Below are positions 26,187-63,660 of a DNA stretch of 64,000 nt, in pieces. The stretch is from assembly GCF_009914755.1 (NCBI RefSeq), contig NC_060943.1; one strand, written 5' to 3'. Under the pieces are notes generated by a model. The model was not told where the DNA came from. It saw only the letters and a program-made list of their open reading frames with translations, and did not search any database. Every line of letters starts with the position of its first letter. The first letter of the stretch is position 1. The stretch is from the human T2T-CHM13v2.0 reference genome, Homo sapiens. The translations under genes and the position numbers were made by a program.

Positions 26187-29162
26187 CTAGAGGGAGAGGG
26201 GTCAGGGTTAGATGGGGAACCCGTGGGTGCCCAGTATAGGATGGCATGGATGGAAAGGAATTTCTGCCTCGGTGTGAGTTCCCGTTCTCCTCTATATGTA
26301 GTAGCTAAGACCTCCCTTCAGTTTGGTGAGAAGGCTGATCCTCCTTTCCCTGTCCCCACTCTCTCTCCCATATCTTCTGCTTCTTCCCTTACCCCCAAGC
26401 TCCATACCCTCCTAATGCCCACACCTCTTACCTTAGGAAAGGCATCCCAGTTGAGGAAAGGAAGTTTCCTTTTGATAGACTAAAAGAAAGAAAGAGAAAG
26501 AGAGTGATGTGTTGCAGGTCAGCCGGGCATGGATGGGTAAGCATTCCCTTAATGAACTCCCACAGTAACCATAGTAACAATAATGTCATTATTTTGTCAT
26601 TACTTTATCAAGAGCTAATATTTCCTGAGGCCTTAGTCTGTGTCTGCCTTGCACGGGCTGCTCTACAAGCATGATTTCAGTGGGTTTTTACAGCAACCTT
26701 TTGTGGTGGGAATTGTCATCATCCCCACATCACAGAGGAAGCGGAGGCCGAGGGAGCTGAAGGCGTTCGCATGAGGCCATGTGAGAAGTCAGTGCAGAGT
26801 CAGGAGACGCGGGCCCCAGCTCTGTCGCTGACTTTGCCTTCTAAGTGCGGGTGGGCCTCAGTTTTTCCATAGAGGATGAGGGGATTCAAATAAAATCTTG
26901 ACCGATTAGCCTCTTCCTCTTCTGCAATTGTCCTTGGGGCCCTGCTCCTCCACCACCATCTTAGGAAAACACGGGTAGCCAGGACTGGCGCCGGGGGAAG
27001 CTTTCTTCCGTTGACAGCCCATTGGGCAGCATCCAGGCAGGACAGTCACTCCCTCCCAGAGATCAGGAACCAACCCATACATTTAAAGCCAAAATGTGTG
27101 GCCACTACCCTGGGATGACTGCAGACAACCGAGGAGGGCAAGGGGCGCCGGAGCACTCACCTCAAAGAGGGCGTGCCAGTTCAGGAACTCATCAGCCTTA
27201 AACGCCTGAGGAGGAAGAGAGACAGCAGAAGCAGGTCAGCTCCAGGGGAGGCCAGAGCTTAGCCCCCAGCCCTCTGGAGAAGGTGAAGGAACCGTGGCAG
27301 CTTTGCAAGCTCTCTACCAAGGCGTTTATCCCCTCTGTGATGAGGGTATTCGTGGGGGTAGCACCAGAGAAGCGTACTCACAGATCGCAATTTGTCGATG
27401 TTCAGGAACGGGGTGTTAAAGGCCTAGGCAGAAACGCAGGGTGTTAGGAAAGTTGCTAAGAAGCAAAAAGAGAGAGAGGACAGACTCGTGGCTGGAGGGC
27501 CGGGGAAAACAGACGGCTTACCTCGGGTCGTGACGCATAATTCTCAATGGTGCTTTCTTCCTGGAAAAGGAGAGGGAGAAAAGGCGGCAGGGGGTCACGT
27601 GATGCCAGGGCCCTTGCCCACATCCCTGTCTGCCAGCTCTGCCTTCATCCACAGCCCAGTCCCCGAAAGAACGCAACCCATTCCCCACCATGGTCTCCGT
27701 TCCAGTCGCGCACATGGTTGGCGGATGTGCAGGGTGAGGAGGGGGAATTGGAGAATGGTACATGTAAGCAGTGTCACCATGGGCAGCAGGCAGAAAGCCT
27801 GGAGCCGAGCATTCCTCTCCGGAAAAGCTAGCTAGTGCTGTCCTGCAGTTGACTTAAGTCTAAGAGGTGGGGTGTTCTGGAGACACCCACGCTCAGTCCG
27901 TATAGCTGGATGGGAAAGATTTGCGAGCAGGTGGGAGCCCAGCTGCTGAGGTGACCCGCCTGCCTCTCACTGATCGAGGTTGCTTTGCTTTGTGGATTTA
28001 TTGCCACCACTGTTGGAGGTTCCATAATCCCCCTCCATGGGGACCCCACCCCAGGCCTCAGTGTGTCCCATCGTGTCTTCCCCATGACAGAGCCCAACAC
28101 GGAGCCCGCAGGCTGGATCCAGATGCTTAGATCTCATAAAAATTTGGTCATTTGTTTTTTGGTTTGAATTAGACATTTTGAATTAGTAAGAATTCATAAA
28201 TTCATCCAGATTTCTAGTTTCCCCTGAAAAATGTAAAACTCTAGGCACATCTTCCCAATCCATGGCGTCAGGTGGGGTGAAAGCTGCCCTTTCAGACTGG
28301 GAAAGTTGGCCCCATTTCACCTCAGGCCCTGACAGCCCCCCCAGCTCAGTGACACCACTGGCTTGGTCCTTAGCAGCTGAGCCTGTGCCCCTGTCTTAGA
28401 CTTTTAAATCCGGAATAGGCATCAGGATTCCTCTCTGGCTGAGGACTGGATGGTAAAGATTCTCACTGTGGCCTATGCTCCAGAGACAGCAGGGAGCCAC
28501 CCGTCACCTGGGCACCACTCCCAGGGGCACAAATGAAGCAAAGAGGAGCTAAGCAGGGGTGTCTCCAGAACACCCCAGCCCCACTCCTCTTTGAGTTAAG
28601 TCAGCTGCAGGCAGAACTAGCTAGTTTTTTGCTTTGCTTCACCCTCTCCACCTGCTGCCCATGTGGATGCAGGCCTGGGTTTGGAGCTGCTCTGCCTCAC
28701 ATTGCCGTTCTCCAGTTCCCCCTCTTCCCCTGCACGTCCCCAGGCATGTGTGCAGCTGGAACGGAATGGGTGAACACTCTTGAGAGCCCATGGTGGAGAT
28801 AGTCTGAACCCAGACCACCCACTCAGTCCCAAGGTTCAGTACACGAGCCTCCCCAACACACTTCACCATCCCTTCCAGAAAGAGGAGCATCTCTGTCCCA
28901 AATGTCTCCCCAGGGATGCTCTGTTCCCTCCTCCCTTCCTCAGAGCCCCAGTTTCTTCAGCCCCCATCAGAATCCAAAACTAAGAGCCACTTATCCAGGA
29001 ATGGACAGGAGGTAGAGAGATGGAGGGGTAGGTGGGTAACACGTATAAGAATAAAAATGCAGGTGACGTGCTCACCTCAGGACCACCCAGGGTGGCTCCC
29101 TGGGCAGAGTGGAGCACCAGGAGGGAGAGGAGCACCACGGCAGGAAGGACCGGGATCTTCAT
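26148..29162 (-). CDS. KRTDAP: Keratinocyte differentiation-associated protein, 99 aa secreted peptide, 6 coding exons
   Basis: Exons 29076-29162, 27522-27560, 27382-27423, 27161-27205, 26432-26479 and 26148-26186 all have canonical AG/GT sites and are phase 0. Spliced product: MKIPVLPAVVLLSLLVLHSAQGATLGGPE/EESTIENYASRPE/AFNTPFLNIDKLRS/AFKADEFLNWHALFE/SIKRKLPFLNWDAFPK/LKGLRSATPDAQ*. Confidence 0.98.
26432..26479 (-). CDS. KRTDAP: KRTDAP exon 5 (48 nt)
   Basis: tag|SIKRKLPFLNWDAFPK|gtaaga. Confidence 0.96.
27161..27205 (-). CDS. KRTDAP: KRTDAP exon 4 (45 nt)
   Basis: cag|AFKADEFLNWHALFE|gtgagt. Confidence 0.96.
27382..27423 (-). CDS. KRTDAP: KRTDAP exon 3 (42 nt)
   Basis: tag|AFNTPFLNIDKLRS|gtgagt. 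Confidence 0.96.
27522..27560 (-). CDS. KRTDAP: KRTDAP exon 2 (39 nt)
   Basis: cag|EESTIENYASRPE|gtaagc. Confidence 0.96.
29076..29162 (-). CDS. KRTDAP: KRTDAP exon 1 (signal peptide)
   Basis: ATG at 29162, 29 codons, donor GTGAGC. Confidence 0.97.
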
Positions 29163-29208
29163 GGCGTCAAGTTTGGGGTGCTCTGAGGCGGGGCCTCAGT
29201 GCTTGCTC

Positions 29209-29270
29209 TTTATATTGCCAAGGAGGCAGATGAGCACAGAAATGGGGTCCCCACCCCACTGACTCACCCC
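29209..29270 (-). promoter_or_regulatory. KRTDAP: KRTDAP core promoter: TATA box, AP-1 site and CACCC boxes
   Basis: TATAAA 29209-29214; TGA(C/G)TCA 29260-29266 flanked by CACCC/KLF-like motifs. Confidence 0.8.
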
Positions 29271-62111: not shown

Positions 62112-62117
62112 TTTATT
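62112..62117 (-). terminator. SBSN: SBSN polyadenylation signal
   Basis: tttatt on the + strand, about 125 nt after the TAA. Confidence 0.88.
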
Positions 62118-62242
62118 CACAAATCCCAGTACAACCCCCTTCAGGGATTTCAGAAACCTGTCCCCCACCCCCAACCCCTCCAGGTCATGTCAGCTGATGT
62201 GACAACGGCGACATTATTCTCCCAGCAAGGCCGGATGCCAGT

Positions 62243-63660
62243 TTAGGGCATGATGTTGGCGACGCTCTGGAAGAGAGAAGGAGAGCAGGGGTGAATGTAG
62301 GGTCCACAGTCATGACGGGACCCGAGACCTCAGCCCCGCCCCTCGGGAGAAGCACAAGGGGACTGGCTGCTCTGGCCCCGGAGTTATGTTCTGGGGAAGT
62401 TTCAGGAAGGTAGCATCTAAACTTAAGAACACAAGGAAGCCAGTCCCCACAGGCAGAGGGGCTGGGGCCTCTGCAGGAACCAACAAGCCTCGTGTGTTTA
62501 GCCTGAGAGGATGCTCTGCCGCCCCCATAGCCTGGGATACACAAGGGTGGGCCTTCCTCCTCCGTGATACACCCTCACCCTGGCCTGCACCAGGTCTCGG
62601 GCAGCAGATACAATAAGTGCAAAAAGAGACTGGGTGCAGTGGCTTACGCCTGTAATCCCAGCACTTTGGGAGGCTGAGGAAGGAGGGGATCACTTGAGAT
62701 CAGGAGTTCGAGACCAGCCTGGCCAATATGGTGAAACCCCTGTCTCTACTAAAAATACAAAAATTAGCTGGGCATGTTGGCGCACACCTGTAATCCCAGC
62801 CACTCAGGAGACTGAGATAGGAGAATCACTTGGACCCAGAAGACGGAGGTTGCAGCGAGCTGAGATTGCACCACTGCACTCCAGCCTGGGAGATAGAGTG
62901 AGACTCCGTCTCAATAAATTAAAATAAAGAAAGAGAGTCAGGAGTTTACTTTGAGCCCCAACTGGGAACCAGGATTCCATAGGAGCCTCTGCACTGGGGT
63001 GACCTTGCACCAGGGAGAGGACAAAGACACAGGCTCCCCCTCCCAGCATGAAGCAAAGGCATTTGCAGGAGGGTTGGGACAGGAGGGAAGCCAGTCAGCA
63101 AATGGGAATCGAGGAATGAGGACAAGGAGAGAGAGGGAATGAGAACAGTCAGCAGCCCCTCCTCCCTCCCTGGCTCCCAGGGGCACCAGGGCCTGGGAGG
63201 TCTTTTCTGCCAGCTTGTGTTTGCCTTGGTGGAAATGAAAGGCACCCAAAAGATGAGGGCAGGGTGCAAAGGGGAGGGAGCAGGTGGAGAGAGGGAAGCC
63301 CAGGACTGGGTATCAGGTTGGAGGTTCTTTGCAGAGGCTGCAGGTCTGCCCGCCCGGGGAGCTGTCCAAACAGACACCGGGAAGGGGTCGGGGTGAGCGT
63401 ATCTATCAGGACGCAGAGCAGAAAAGAGACACCATGGGGCACTCACCCTCCACAGGGCGGGAAGGTTGATGAAAGGCGTGTTGACCGAGGCCTGCAATTC
63501 AAGGACAAGAAGGTCAGTCTCCAGCGTCTGACCCACAGCCATGCTAGGGAACTCCCAGGGGCCTCCTCTCCCCTACCCCAGAGTCCGCGCTTACCCCAGA
63601 GGCTAACGGCGTGGTTGTGGCCCCTCCTTGATGGCTGGAAGATCCGCTTTGATGGTTGCC
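62243..63660 (-). CDS. SBSN: Suprabasin, last three coding exons (5' part lies beyond the window)
   Basis: Exons 63595-63660 [22 protein letters not shown], 63447-63491 [15 protein letters not shown] and 62243-62266 SVANIMP-TAA; canonical splice sites, all phase 0. Confidence 0.95.

What the first reader, a model, noticed from the sequence alone, without database searches (positions are those of the whole stretch)
26432..63491. One donor-anchored 9-residue module repeated in nine phase-0 microexons across three genes
Seen: aligned to their 3' splice donors, the last nine codons read FLNIDKLRS, FLNWHALFE, FLNWDAFPK (KRTDAP); [44 protein letters not shown] (DMKN); and FINLPALWR (SBSN). All nine have hydrophobic residues at positions 1, 2, 4 and 7, six also at position 8, and seven have N at position 3. 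KRTDAP exon 5 and DMKN 44435-44482 are both 48 nt, share 9/16 residues and share 14 identical nt (ggcatcccagttga). NTPF(L/I)N occurs in all three genes. Established: the genes form a co-expressed secreted epidermal cluster. Inference: they share an exon-sized amphipathic helix module (lipid, receptor or sorting motif) whose copy number is set by gene and by splicing (alpha 1, gamma 2, beta 5, KRTDAP 3, SBSN 1 in this window).
Basis: partly seen in the sequence, partly recalled or inferred. Interest (0 to 1): 0.85.

Follow-up and report, generated by a model that had tools for sequence, protein, structure and literature searches.

The report
Shared exon repeat unites three skin genes
Nine small exons in the neighbouring human skin genes KRTDAP, DMKN and SBSN are true copies of one ancestral exon, so the three genes are relatives, and this roughly 15-residue unit is their best-conserved and probably functional core.

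Summary
In leave-one-out, donor-anchored scoring, 7 of the 8 modules that end at a splice donor rank 1 of 4287 candidates. The eighth ranks 2, and the stop-ended module ranks 1 of 3597. Two strict module patterns scanned over the whole human genome recover only exons of this locus, apart from Alu-like or stop-containing chance hits.

KRTDAP and DMKN are linked by several tests: nucleotide similarity (E 4.6e-6), BLASTP (6e-5) and profile-profile comparison (E 2.3e-6, collinear). SBSN joins through register-specific profile scores (z 2.6-4.1) and the genome-unique NTPF(L/I)N-x6-donor pattern.

The modules are the most conserved part of DMKN in 22 placental genera. The copy numbers alpha 1, gamma 2 and beta 5 hold.

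The amphipathic-helix reading is not supported by hydrophobic moment.

The KRTDAP-DMKN link is already implicit in Pfam PF15200. I found neither the SBSN link nor the exon-unit definition in Pfam or in held papers. Moderately interesting; function still open.

The parts
27382..27423 (-). KRTDAP exon 3, module K3 (AFNTPFLNIDKLRS)
   Evidence: Rank 1 of 4287 in leave-one-out scoring. One of 3 locus hits among 4 genome-wide hits of NTPF-h-N-x6-GTRAG. Register kept in 10 of 10 orthologue rows.
27161..27205 (-). KRTDAP exon 4, module K4 (AFKADEFLNWHALFE)
   Evidence: Rank 1 of 4287. One of 4 locus hits among 7 genome-wide hits of F-h-N-W-x-A-x3-GTRAG. Register kept in 13 of 13 rows.
26432..26479 (-). 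KRTDAP exon 5, module K5 (SIKRKLPFLNWDAFPK)
   Evidence: Rank 1. blastn to DMKN 40854-40901: 75% over 52 nt, E 4.6e-6. blastn to DMKN 44435-44482 with flanks: 68% over 79 nt, E 4e-5. PF15200 match of 32.2 bits in the genome scan.
44656..44703 (-). DMKN module D8 ([16 protein letters not shown]). Its Met is the inferred start of the intracellular delta forms.
   Evidence: Rank 1. Mean pairwise identity 0.80 across 22 genera.
44435..44482 (-). DMKN module D9 ([16 protein letters not shown])
   Evidence: Rank 1. Leave-one-out HMM E 4.1e-4. Identity 0.92. Genome pattern hit.
41548..41604 (-). DMKN module D10 ([19 protein letters not shown]), the weakest member by sequence
   Evidence: Rank 2 of 4287 (9-mer) and 5 of 3429 (14-mer), but rank 103 with the leave-one-out HMM. 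Profile z 0.8-3.8 to the other modules. hhalign treats it as an insertion relative to KRTDAP. Core identity 0.94 across 22 genera.
40854..40901 (-). DMKN module D11 ([16 protein letters not shown])
   Evidence: Rank 1. Best non-self hit of the KRTDAP-only HMM, E 3.4e-4. Hit by both strict genome patterns.
37434..37481 (-). DMKN module D16 ([15 protein letters not shown] + TAG). The stop codon sits in codon 9 of the core and is followed directly by the donor gtgagt, which is used.
   Evidence: Rank 1 of 3597 stop-anchored 8-mers. Register kept in 21-22 of 22 rows. The hub annotation places a UTR-only last exon at 35938-36256.
63447..63491 (-). SBSN exon 4, module S4 ([15 protein letters not shown])
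   Evidence: Rank 1 of 4287. Profile z 2.6-4.1 to all eight other modules, against a module-control mean of 0.26. Genome pattern hit. HMM support is weak: E 0.32 from the KRTDAP+DMKN model. The only such exon in the whole SBSN gene.
27522..27560 (-). KRTDAP exon 2 (EESTIENYASRPE), a possible degenerate tenth copy
   Evidence: Orthologue profile z 3.7 to K5, 3.3 to D11 and 2.6 to K4. The human 9-mer ranks only 70 of 4286. Suggestive only.
40541..40629 (-). First exon of DMKN-alpha. It lies downstream of D11, so alpha keeps only D16.
   Evidence: An ORF of 90 aa from its ATG through exons 39251-, 38676-, 37592- and 37434- ends with the D16 core.
42022..42165 (-). Terminal exon of gamma-type DMKN. 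It adds 8 residues and a stop after D9, giving 2 modules.
   Evidence: Three ape models (P0004, P0006, P0008) end with exactly D9 plus this tail. Four further primate models differ by one residue.
39251..39298 (-). Linker exon. Together with D8 (from its Met), D9, D10 and D11 it makes 76 residues.
   Evidence: 76 + 61 = 137 residues, or 123 without exon 39096-39137. This equals the delta5 Nt 1-76, Ct 77-137 and 123-aa minimal sequence given in PMC3053396.

Best explanation
The nine exons are paralogous copies of one ancestral phase-0 exon of about 45 nt.

Each exon encodes a unit of about 15 residues. A variable polar or basic lead (x-F-K-x-x-x-P/G) is followed by a fixed nine-residue aromatic and hydrophobic core (F-h-N-W-x-A-h-h-K/E). 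The core always ends at the splice donor.

The exon was multiplied in tandem inside an ancestral gene for a secreted protein. That gene was then duplicated in tandem, giving KRTDAP, DMKN and SBSN. [quoted passage not shown] All copies predate the placental radiation and each has kept its own identity since.

Shown: homology, conservation, and copy-number control by promoter and splice choice.

Inferred (about 35-40% likely): the core is a Trp/Phe-centred contact surface rather than a lipid-facing amphipathic helix. Tandem copies (KRTDAP 3, DMKN 4) would pack on one another into a small helical repeat domain, which would be the conserved 'globular domain 2' of dermokine-beta and the partner-binding part. 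Single terminal copies (SBSN, DMKN-alpha) would act as one-unit docking tags. Copy number (0 to 5) would then set valency.
For: Homology:
- 7 of 8 modules rank 1 of 4287.
- D16 ranks 1 of 3597.
- the KRTDAP-only HMM finds D11 (E 3.4e-4) and D9 (8.7e-3) as the best non-self hits in 3602 six-frame pieces. The DMKN-only HMM finds K5 (3.5e-3).
- nucleotide match K5-D11, E 4.6e-6.
- BLASTP of human KRTDAP isoform against DMKN, E 6e-5.
- hhalign of the KRTDAP family against the DMKN family gives probability 89% and E 2.3e-6. The alignment is collinear: K3-D8, K4-D9, K5-D11.
- the matching introns are 176 and 173 nt.
- mean z is 3.2 module-module, 0.26 module-control and 0.09 control-control.
- outside Alu-like or stop-containing hits, the strict patterns occur only in this locus in 3.1 Gb.
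- every coding exon of the three genes is phase 0.

Selection:
- module identity is 0.80-0.92 against 0.54 for the rest of DMKN.
- 40 of 62 invariant columns fall in 82 of 465 residues.
- the register is kept in nearly all rows.
- second codon positions are the most alike (0.56 against 0.37-0.38), as expected for constraint on the protein.

Mechanism:
- dermokine-delta5 residues 1-76 suffice for Rab5 binding and for endosome-like localisation (PMC3053396, passages). By my arithmetic these residues are the four tandem modules plus one linker exon.
- the hydrophobic residues cover more than one helix face.
- weak similarity of KRTDAP to the repeated FKNxxFxxW motif of a solved helical-repeat RxLR effector (5zc3_B, E 0.002-0.004).
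Against: - SBSN is tied in only by short-motif evidence. No HMM reaches significance. Pfam PF15200 does not match dog SBSN even at E up to 10.
- D10 ranks 103 with the leave-one-out HMM.
- Nothing was folded, so helicity and packing are inferred. A preprint reports low AlphaFold 3 confidence for most of mouse dermokine outside residues 22-125. That does not favour a well-packed module domain.
- Rab5 is cytosolic, so its relevance to the secreted isoforms is doubtful. The mapping of delta5 Nt onto modules is my arithmetic; I could not see the paper's figure.
- The RxLR similarity is marginal and did not improve with a profile.
- No non-placental sequences were available.
Confidence: 0.6

Rival explanations
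1. Each module is an autonomous amphipathic alpha-helix that lies on lipid, for example lamellar-body or intercellular lipid of the upper epidermis. Copy number sets lipid avidity.
For: The hydrophobic spacing 1, 4, 8, 11 (15) across exon junctions in K4, D8, D10 and S4 fits a helix stripe. A Pro or Gly just before 7 of 9 cores could cap a helix. D10 and D16 reach a moment of 0.54. The proteins are secreted by differentiating keratinocytes.
Against: The moment at 100 degrees is 0.18-0.54 for cores and 0.06-0.54 for 15-residue units. None exceeds its own shuffles at 5%, and the mean spectrum peaks at 120 degrees. SBSN has a conserved Pro at core position 5 and K5 a Pro at position 8. The only mapped activity of the module region is protein binding.
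Confidence: 0.2
2. The module is a sorting or retention signal that routes these proteins into lamellar granules or another secretory carrier. It has no role after secretion.
For: It is shared by three co-expressed secreted proteins. It is present in every SBSN isoform according to the review. The delta5 N-terminal module region localises to endosome-like vesicles.
Against: One copy would do for sorting, yet KRTDAP keeps 3 and DMKN 5, each conserved individually. Database models of KRTDAP with no module still carry the signal peptide. There is no direct evidence either way.
Confidence: 0.1
3. Conservation acts on the RNA. The shared nucleotides are splicing enhancers needed to recognise very small exons, and the peptide similarity is a by-product.
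For: TTC for Phe is used in 6 modules and AAC for Asn in 7. K5 and D11 share a 16-nt identical run that includes synonymous sites.
Against: Among paralogues the second codon position is the most conserved (0.56) and the third no more than the first (0.37-0.38). Orthologue substitutions keep the residue class, for example M/L/V/I at D8 position 1. Small non-module exons of the same genes show no such motif.
Confidence: 0.05
4. Chance resemblance or convergence. The nine peptides were picked from many short exons and share only a common hydrophobic pattern.
For: Short motifs are easy to over-read. HMM E-values for five of nine are above 1 in leave-one-out.
Against: Ranks of 1 or 2 among about 4300 candidates for all nine. 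Genome-wide uniqueness of two strict patterns. Nucleotide-level matches. Collinear profile alignment. Same phase, strand and locus.
Confidence: 0.02

Closest known systems
Pfam PF15200 'KRTDAP' (Keratinocyte differentiation-associated), 77 positions
   Same: The model covers mature KRTDAP, that is the three modules (144.5 bits on P0076). The protein database's precomputed annotation places PF15200.13 on 67 of 70 dermokine orthologues. The KRTDAP-DMKN relation is therefore already implicit in Pfam.
   Different: Pfam treats it as one 77-position family, not as an exon-sized repeat. In the copy I could run, human DMKN scores 23 bits, below the 27-bit cut-off, and matches only residues 343-367. 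SBSN is not matched at all. D8, D10 and D16 are not singled out.
[quoted passage not shown]
   Same: The same three genes, the same orientation, co-expressed and secreted (passages in PMC13460826 and PMC7831088).
   Different: In the papers I could read it is described as a co-regulated cluster. [quoted passage not shown] The 2011 delta paper says dermokine-delta shares no similarity with any known protein. The present result makes the cluster a family that shares one exon.
Dermokine-beta 'C-terminal globular domain 2'
   Same: The module array D8-D11 plus D16 lies in the C-terminal part. A preprint calls this the functional domain for ERK modulation and wound healing, citing Higashi and Hasegawa.
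   Different: I saw only the citing passage. The primary papers are not held, so the exact domain limits are unknown to me. No repeat substructure is mentioned in what I read.
Tandem helical repeats with a buried Trp, as in oomycete RxLR effectors (PDB 5zc3_B)
   Same: The repeated F-K-N-x-x-F-x-x-W-x-x-h-h segments align with the KRTDAP modules (E 0.0018 with one sequence, 0.0039 with a profile). This is a possible analogue for how tandem modules could pack. That such effectors bury the Trp in a helical bundle is recalled, not tested here.
   Different: Common descent is implausible. Individual stretches are not significant (i-E 2.7-19). DMKN does not hit it. This is a lead on mechanism only, not membership.

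Membership tests
Pfam PF15200 KRTDAP | Score at or above the curated cut-off (27 bits) - KRTDAP | tested here: met
   P0076 scores 144.5 bits and P0081 131.9 bits. The K5 exon alone scores 32.2 bits in the genome scan.
Pfam PF15200 KRTDAP | Score at or above the curated cut-off - DMKN | tested here: inconclusive
   Human P0002 scores 23 bits, goat 20.7 and guinea pig 17.2, all below 27. Yet 67 of 70 orthologues carry a precomputed PF15200.13 label. The 55-bit golden-mole hit is a DMKN-KRTDAP read-through model.
Pfam PF15200 KRTDAP | Score at or above the curated cut-off - SBSN | tested here: not met
   Dog SBSN P0071 shows only PF21009 SBSN_GxHH_rpt and no PF15200 at E up to 10. A single 15-residue copy cannot reach 27 bits on a 77-position model.
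One exon-repeat family (this report's claim) | Same phase, with the core ending exactly at the donor | tested here: met
   9 of 9 are phase 0-0 and followed by GT. D16 has its stop in codon 9.
One exon-repeat family (this report's claim) | Register-specific similarity above controls | tested here: met
   Ranks 1 or 2 of about 4300. Mean z 3.2 against 0.26 for control exons. D10 is the weakest member.
One exon-repeat family (this report's claim) | Similarity visible in the DNA (descent rather than convergence) | tested here: met
   Met for K5-D11 and K5-D9: E 4.6e-6 and 4e-5. Only marginal for the pairs with SBSN (E 0.45-0.47).
Amphipathic lipid-binding alpha-helix | High hydrophobic moment at 100 degrees with a clear polar face | tested here: not met
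   Moment 0.06-0.54. None exceeds its shuffles at 5%. The mean spectrum peaks at 120 degrees.
Amphipathic lipid-binding alpha-helix | Helical conformation, lipid binding | not testable with these tools
There is no experimental assay here.
RxLR WY/LWY helical repeat | Significant sequence or fold match | tested here: inconclusive
   E 0.0018 and 0.0039 for the whole chain, with no stretch significant on its own. No fold comparison was possible.

The most novel reading that the evidence does not exclude
The module is a mutual docking unit that turns the three 'unrelated' secreted skin proteins into one system. KRTDAP, the dermokine isoforms and suprabasin would bind one another, or compete for one receptor, through the same Trp/Phe core. 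Copy number from 0 to 5, set by promoter choice and in-frame exon skipping, would tune valency and so signalling or assembly at the granular-cornified interface. The intracellular delta forms, which start at the Met inside module D8, would reuse the same surface on Rab5.
Probability: 0.15. Interest if true: 0.7.

Novelty: new member of a known kind. Interest (0 to 1): 0.45.

Why it matters
KRTDAP, dermokine and suprabasin are abundant products of differentiating keratinocytes, and their molecular functions remain unclear.

This result gives one concrete hypothesis for all three. They descend from one gene, and their only shared and best-conserved element is a 15-residue exon unit.

It points to precise targets for mutagenesis: F1, W4 and the hydrophobic positions 7 and 8. 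It explains why the C-terminal part of dermokine carries the activity. It also gives a rational reading of the many isoforms as copy-number variants.

It corrects the statement that SBSN has no paralogues, and it suggests that the Pfam KRTDAP family should be redefined as a repeat that includes SBSN.

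Tried and rejected
- A profile search of the human genome with the nine-module alignment was not accepted. A search with one 16-residue module found only itself. I used three IUPAC patterns instead.
- The third, looser pattern gave 89 hits against 30 for the reversed control. 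Three look-alikes (L022-L024) proved not to be exons: one has a stop three codons upstream and no acceptor, one follows a poly-A tail, and one has no plausible exon.
- The PF15200 scan of the genome found only K5 and K4 plus hits with E above 1 elsewhere.
- HMM hits at + 17162-17188 and - 18612-18650 (E 0.24 to 2) contain nearby stops and are noise. The 9-mer at - 46358-46384 has a poor donor and no acceptor.
- The nine-module alignment and the 29-residue KRTDAP exon 1 were too short for the big protein search.
- An exhaustive search with bat KRTDAP against 1.84 billion representatives gave 32 hits at E up to 0.001. All are KRTDAP or DMKN-KRTDAP read-through models. There is no third family and no stand-alone DMKN or SBSN.
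- The SBSN exon 1 search returned only 3 proteins because the repeats crowded the candidate list.
- The ESM Atlas returned only KRTDAP clusters.
Earlier findings were not open.
Searches were badly designed and gave nothing.
- No held paper describes the shared motif. Matsui 2004 and Moffatt 2004 and Park 2002 are not held. I did not look up Toulza 2006, Naso 2007 or Higashi 2012. Prior description there cannot be excluded.

Full report
**What is there.**

The window holds KRTDAP, DMKN and the 3' part of SBSN, all on the minus strand. I translated the annotated coding exons. Every coding exon of the three genes starts and ends in phase 0.

| Module | Gene and exon | Peptide |
|---|---|---|
| K3 | KRTDAP 27382-27423 | AFNTPFLNIDKLRS |
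| K4 | KRTDAP 27161-27205 | AFKADEFLNWHALFE |
| K5 | KRTDAP 26432-26479 | SIKRKLPFLNWDAFPK |
| D8 | DMKN 44656-44703 | [16 protein letters not shown] |
| D9 | DMKN 44435-44482 | [16 protein letters not shown] |
| D10 | DMKN 41548-41604 | [19 protein letters not shown] |
| D11 | DMKN 40854-40901 | [16 protein letters not shown] |
| D16 | DMKN 37434-37481 | [15 protein letters not shown], then stop |
| S4 | SBSN 63447-63491 | [15 protein letters not shown] |

Exon length varies at the 5' end (42-57 nt), and the conserved core is flush with the donor. MAFFT finds this register without being told.

In D16 the TAG occupies the ninth core codon. It is followed at once by gtgagt, a donor that the annotated transcript uses to reach a UTR-only last exon. 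D16 is therefore a module whose last codon became the stop.

**Is it more than chance?**

- Of 4294 open nine-codon stretches that precede a GT on either strand of the window, 53 have hydrophobic residues at positions 1, 2, 4 and 7. Among the 21 annotated coding exons that end in a donor, 8 do. With N at position 3 there are exactly 7 in 4294, all of them module exons.
- In leave-one-out scoring with the mean BLOSUM62 score against the other modules, 7 of the 8 GT-ended modules rank 1 of 4287 and D10 ranks 2. With 14 residues, 7 rank 1 of 3429 and D10 ranks 5. D16 ranks 1 of 3597 stop-anchored 8-mers.
- HMMER is less decisive on such short units. Leave-one-out models give E 4e-4 to 4e-3 for D9, D11 and K5. 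K3, S4, K4, D8 and D16 rank 1 to 4 with E above 1. D10 ranks 103.
- No further copy exists in the window. The next hits have E of 0.24 or more and lie next to stop codons.

**Across genes and across the genome.**

- A model built from KRTDAP alone finds D11 (E 3.4e-4) and D9 (8.7e-3) as its best non-self hits among 3602 six-frame pieces. A DMKN-only model finds K5 (3.5e-3).
- At the DNA level, the best two blastn matches between the KRTDAP region and the DMKN module region are K5 with D11 (75% over 52 nt, E 4.6e-6) and K5 plus flanks with D9 (68% over 79 nt, E 4e-5).
- BLASTP of a human KRTDAP isoform against human DMKN gives E 6e-5.
- A profile-profile comparison of 13 KRTDAP sequences with 22 DMKN sequences gives probability 89% and E 2.3e-6. 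It aligns K3 with D8, K4 with D9 and K5 with D11 collinearly, with D10 as an insertion. The introns K3-K4 and D8-D9 are 176 and 173 nt.
- SBSN is linked less strongly by HMMs. The KRTDAP+DMKN model gives E 0.32. S4 alone finds K3 and D11 as its two best non-self hits at E 0.18 and 0.4.
- In a register-specific profile test, however, S4 scores z 2.6-4.1 against all eight other modules. Mean z is 3.2 for module-module pairs, 0.26 for module-control exon pairs and 0.09 for control-control pairs.
- In the whole 3.1-Gb genome, F-h-N-W-x-A-x3 followed by GTRAG occurs 7 times. Four are K4, K5, D9 and D11. Three lie in a sequence I recognise from memory as Alu. The reversed control gives 0.
- N-T-P-F-h-N-x6 followed by GTRAG occurs 4 times. 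Three are K3, D11 and S4, one in each gene. The fourth carries an in-frame stop. The control gives 1.
- A looser third pattern gave 89 hits against 30 for the control. It included D8 and D16, and the three closest look-alikes are not exons.

Same locus, strand, phase and exon size, together with nucleotide similarity, point to common descent rather than convergence.

**Conservation.**

The protein database returned 70 dermokine orthologues, two KRTDAP orthologues and, from the exhaustive search, 32 KRTDAP-type representatives.

- In 22 placental genera, including afrotherian-adjacent, bat, carnivore, cetartiodactyl, rodent and primate lineages, the five DMKN modules have mean pairwise identity 0.80-0.92. 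The cores score 0.83-0.94. The rest of the protein scores 0.54.
- 40 of the 62 invariant columns fall in the 82 module residues of 465.
- Positions 1, 2, 4 and 7 are hydrophobic in 20-22 of 22 rows for every DMKN module, and in 10 of 10, 13 of 13 and 12 of 13 rows for K3, K4 and K5. The K5 alignment contains two mis-spliced models (P0079, P0090), one of which accounts for the miss.
- The SBSN core is FINLPALWR in human, FISFPTLWQ in dog and FIDFPTLWK in alpaca. The hydrophobic positions and the Pro are kept, but the Asn is not.
- Each module resembles its own orthologues far more than its paralogues. The duplications therefore predate the placental radiation, and there is no ongoing homogenisation.

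**Copy number.**

- DMKN-alpha starts at exon 40541-40629, downstream of D11. It gives a 90-residue ORF that ends in D16, so it has one copy.
- Gamma-type forms end with D8, D9 and eight residues from exon 42022-42165, exactly as in three ape models.
- Beta has five copies.
- Among the 75 proteins held at the time, 37 models have five modules, 17 have four, 4 have three and 10 have two.
- KRTDAP models with two or no modules exist.
- All SBSN isoforms keep their last exons according to the review.
- KRTDAP exon 2 may be a degenerate further copy. Its profile z is 3.7 to K5 and 3.3 to D11, but its human 9-mer ranks only 70 of 4286.

**How it may work.**

The amphipathic-helix idea does not pass the simple test available to me. 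The Eisenberg moment at 100 degrees is 0.18-0.54 for the cores and 0.06-0.54 for 15-residue units that span the exon junction. None exceeds its own shuffles at 5%, and the mean spectrum peaks at 120 degrees. The hydrophobic residues occupy more than one face. SBSN has a Pro in mid-core.

Two experimental leads exist in print.

- Dermokine-delta5 residues 1-76 suffice for Rab5 binding and for localisation to endosome-like structures, while residues 77-137 do not (PMC3053396, passages). Counting from the Met inside D8 through D9, D10, D11 and the linker exon gives exactly 76 residues. The rest gives 61, the total is 137, and the count without the alternative exon is 123. These match the paper's numbers. 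The binding region is therefore the four tandem modules plus a linker. This mapping is my inference, because the figure is not held.
[quoted passage not shown] It also reports low AlphaFold 3 confidence outside residues 22-125 of the mouse protein.

KRTDAP shows a weak match to repeated F-K-N-x-x-F-x-x-W segments of a solved helical-repeat effector (E 0.0018, or 0.0039 with a profile). I take this as an analogy only.

I therefore favour a Trp/Phe-centred protein-contact unit that packs in tandem, at about 35-40%. The lipid-helix reading stands at about 20% and a sorting signal at about 10%.

**What is known.**

- Pfam PF15200 'KRTDAP' covers mature KRTDAP. It is precomputed on 67 of 70 dermokines in the database. 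In the copy I ran, though, human DMKN scores 23 bits against a cut-off of 27.
- SBSN is not matched at all.
- The 2011 delta paper says the protein resembles nothing known.
- Two papers list KRTDAP or PF15200 and dermokine as mammalian innovations.
- None of my ten literature searches found a description of the shared exon unit.
- Of the founding papers, Matsui 2004, Moffatt 2004 and Park 2002 are not held. I did not look up Toulza 2006, Naso 2007 or Higashi 2012.

**Verdict.**

The homology and the copy-number logic are well supported. The proposed helix and lipid function is not. The KRTDAP-DMKN link is implicit in Pfam. The new parts are the SBSN link, the five-copy reading of DMKN with a stop inside the last copy, and the definition of the unit as an exon. 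They are useful, but not startling for tandemly clustered genes.

Noticed in passing
window 37434-37436 and 35938-36256 (-): The DMKN stop codon TAG is the last codon of the penultimate exon. It is followed directly by a consensus donor (gtgagt), so the last exon is all UTR. The stop sits where the other modules have AAG, GAG or AGG. In D8, D9 and K5 (AAG) and D10, D11 and K4 (GAG) that is one base away.
   Followed up: partly
window 27522-27560 (-): KRTDAP exon 2 (13 residues, core I-x-N-Y-A-x-x-P-E) looks like a worn-down further copy of the module.
   Followed up: partly
window 51767-52192 (-) and L021 3380-5233 (-): The Gly/Ala-rich N-terminal exon of DMKN aligns weakly with the GxHH repeats of SBSN (BLASTP E 0.003, 36% over 61 residues). 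This suggests that the two genes also share their N-terminal architecture. Pfam PF21009 does not match DMKN exon 1.
   Followed up: partly
L021 3440-4909 (SBSN exon 1, just outside the window): There is a 54-nt unit repeated 27 times, with a 216-nt higher-order unit repeated 4.5 times. Exon 1 is open for 618 residues up to its donor in this assembly, while the review gives 590 residues for the whole of isoform 1. By my arithmetic this assembly carries one extra 72-residue unit.
   Followed up: partly
proteins P0031, P0051, P0052, P0070, P0072, P0077, P0084, P0088, P0089, P0092: Many database gene models fuse neighbouring genes: DMKN-KRTDAP, and for alpaca SBSN-DMKN. They splice from one gene's module array into the next, which is possible because every exon is phase 0. 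Whether any such read-through transcript is real is unknown.
   Followed up: no
proteins P0040-P0048, P0056-P0060 (cetacean dermokines, names): Cetacean dermokine models are short (288-426 residues) yet keep the modules. They carry more substitutions than other mammals, for example FMNWDTISK and FLYFCRLWE.
   Followed up: no
window 29083-29134 (-) vs 40537-40590 (-): The signal-peptide exon of KRTDAP and the alpha-specific first exon of DMKN show 72% identity over 54 nt (E 0.25). This may be only shared signal-peptide composition.
   Followed up: no
window 50139-50279: A 12-nt unit is repeated 11.5 times inside the Gly/Ser-rich DMKN exon 50128-50310.
   Followed up: no
window 62625-62936, 43009-43318, 41138-41433: Copies of about 300 nt at 79-80% identity lie in SBSN and DMKN introns. 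I take them to be Alu elements. They are unrelated to the module.
   Followed up: no
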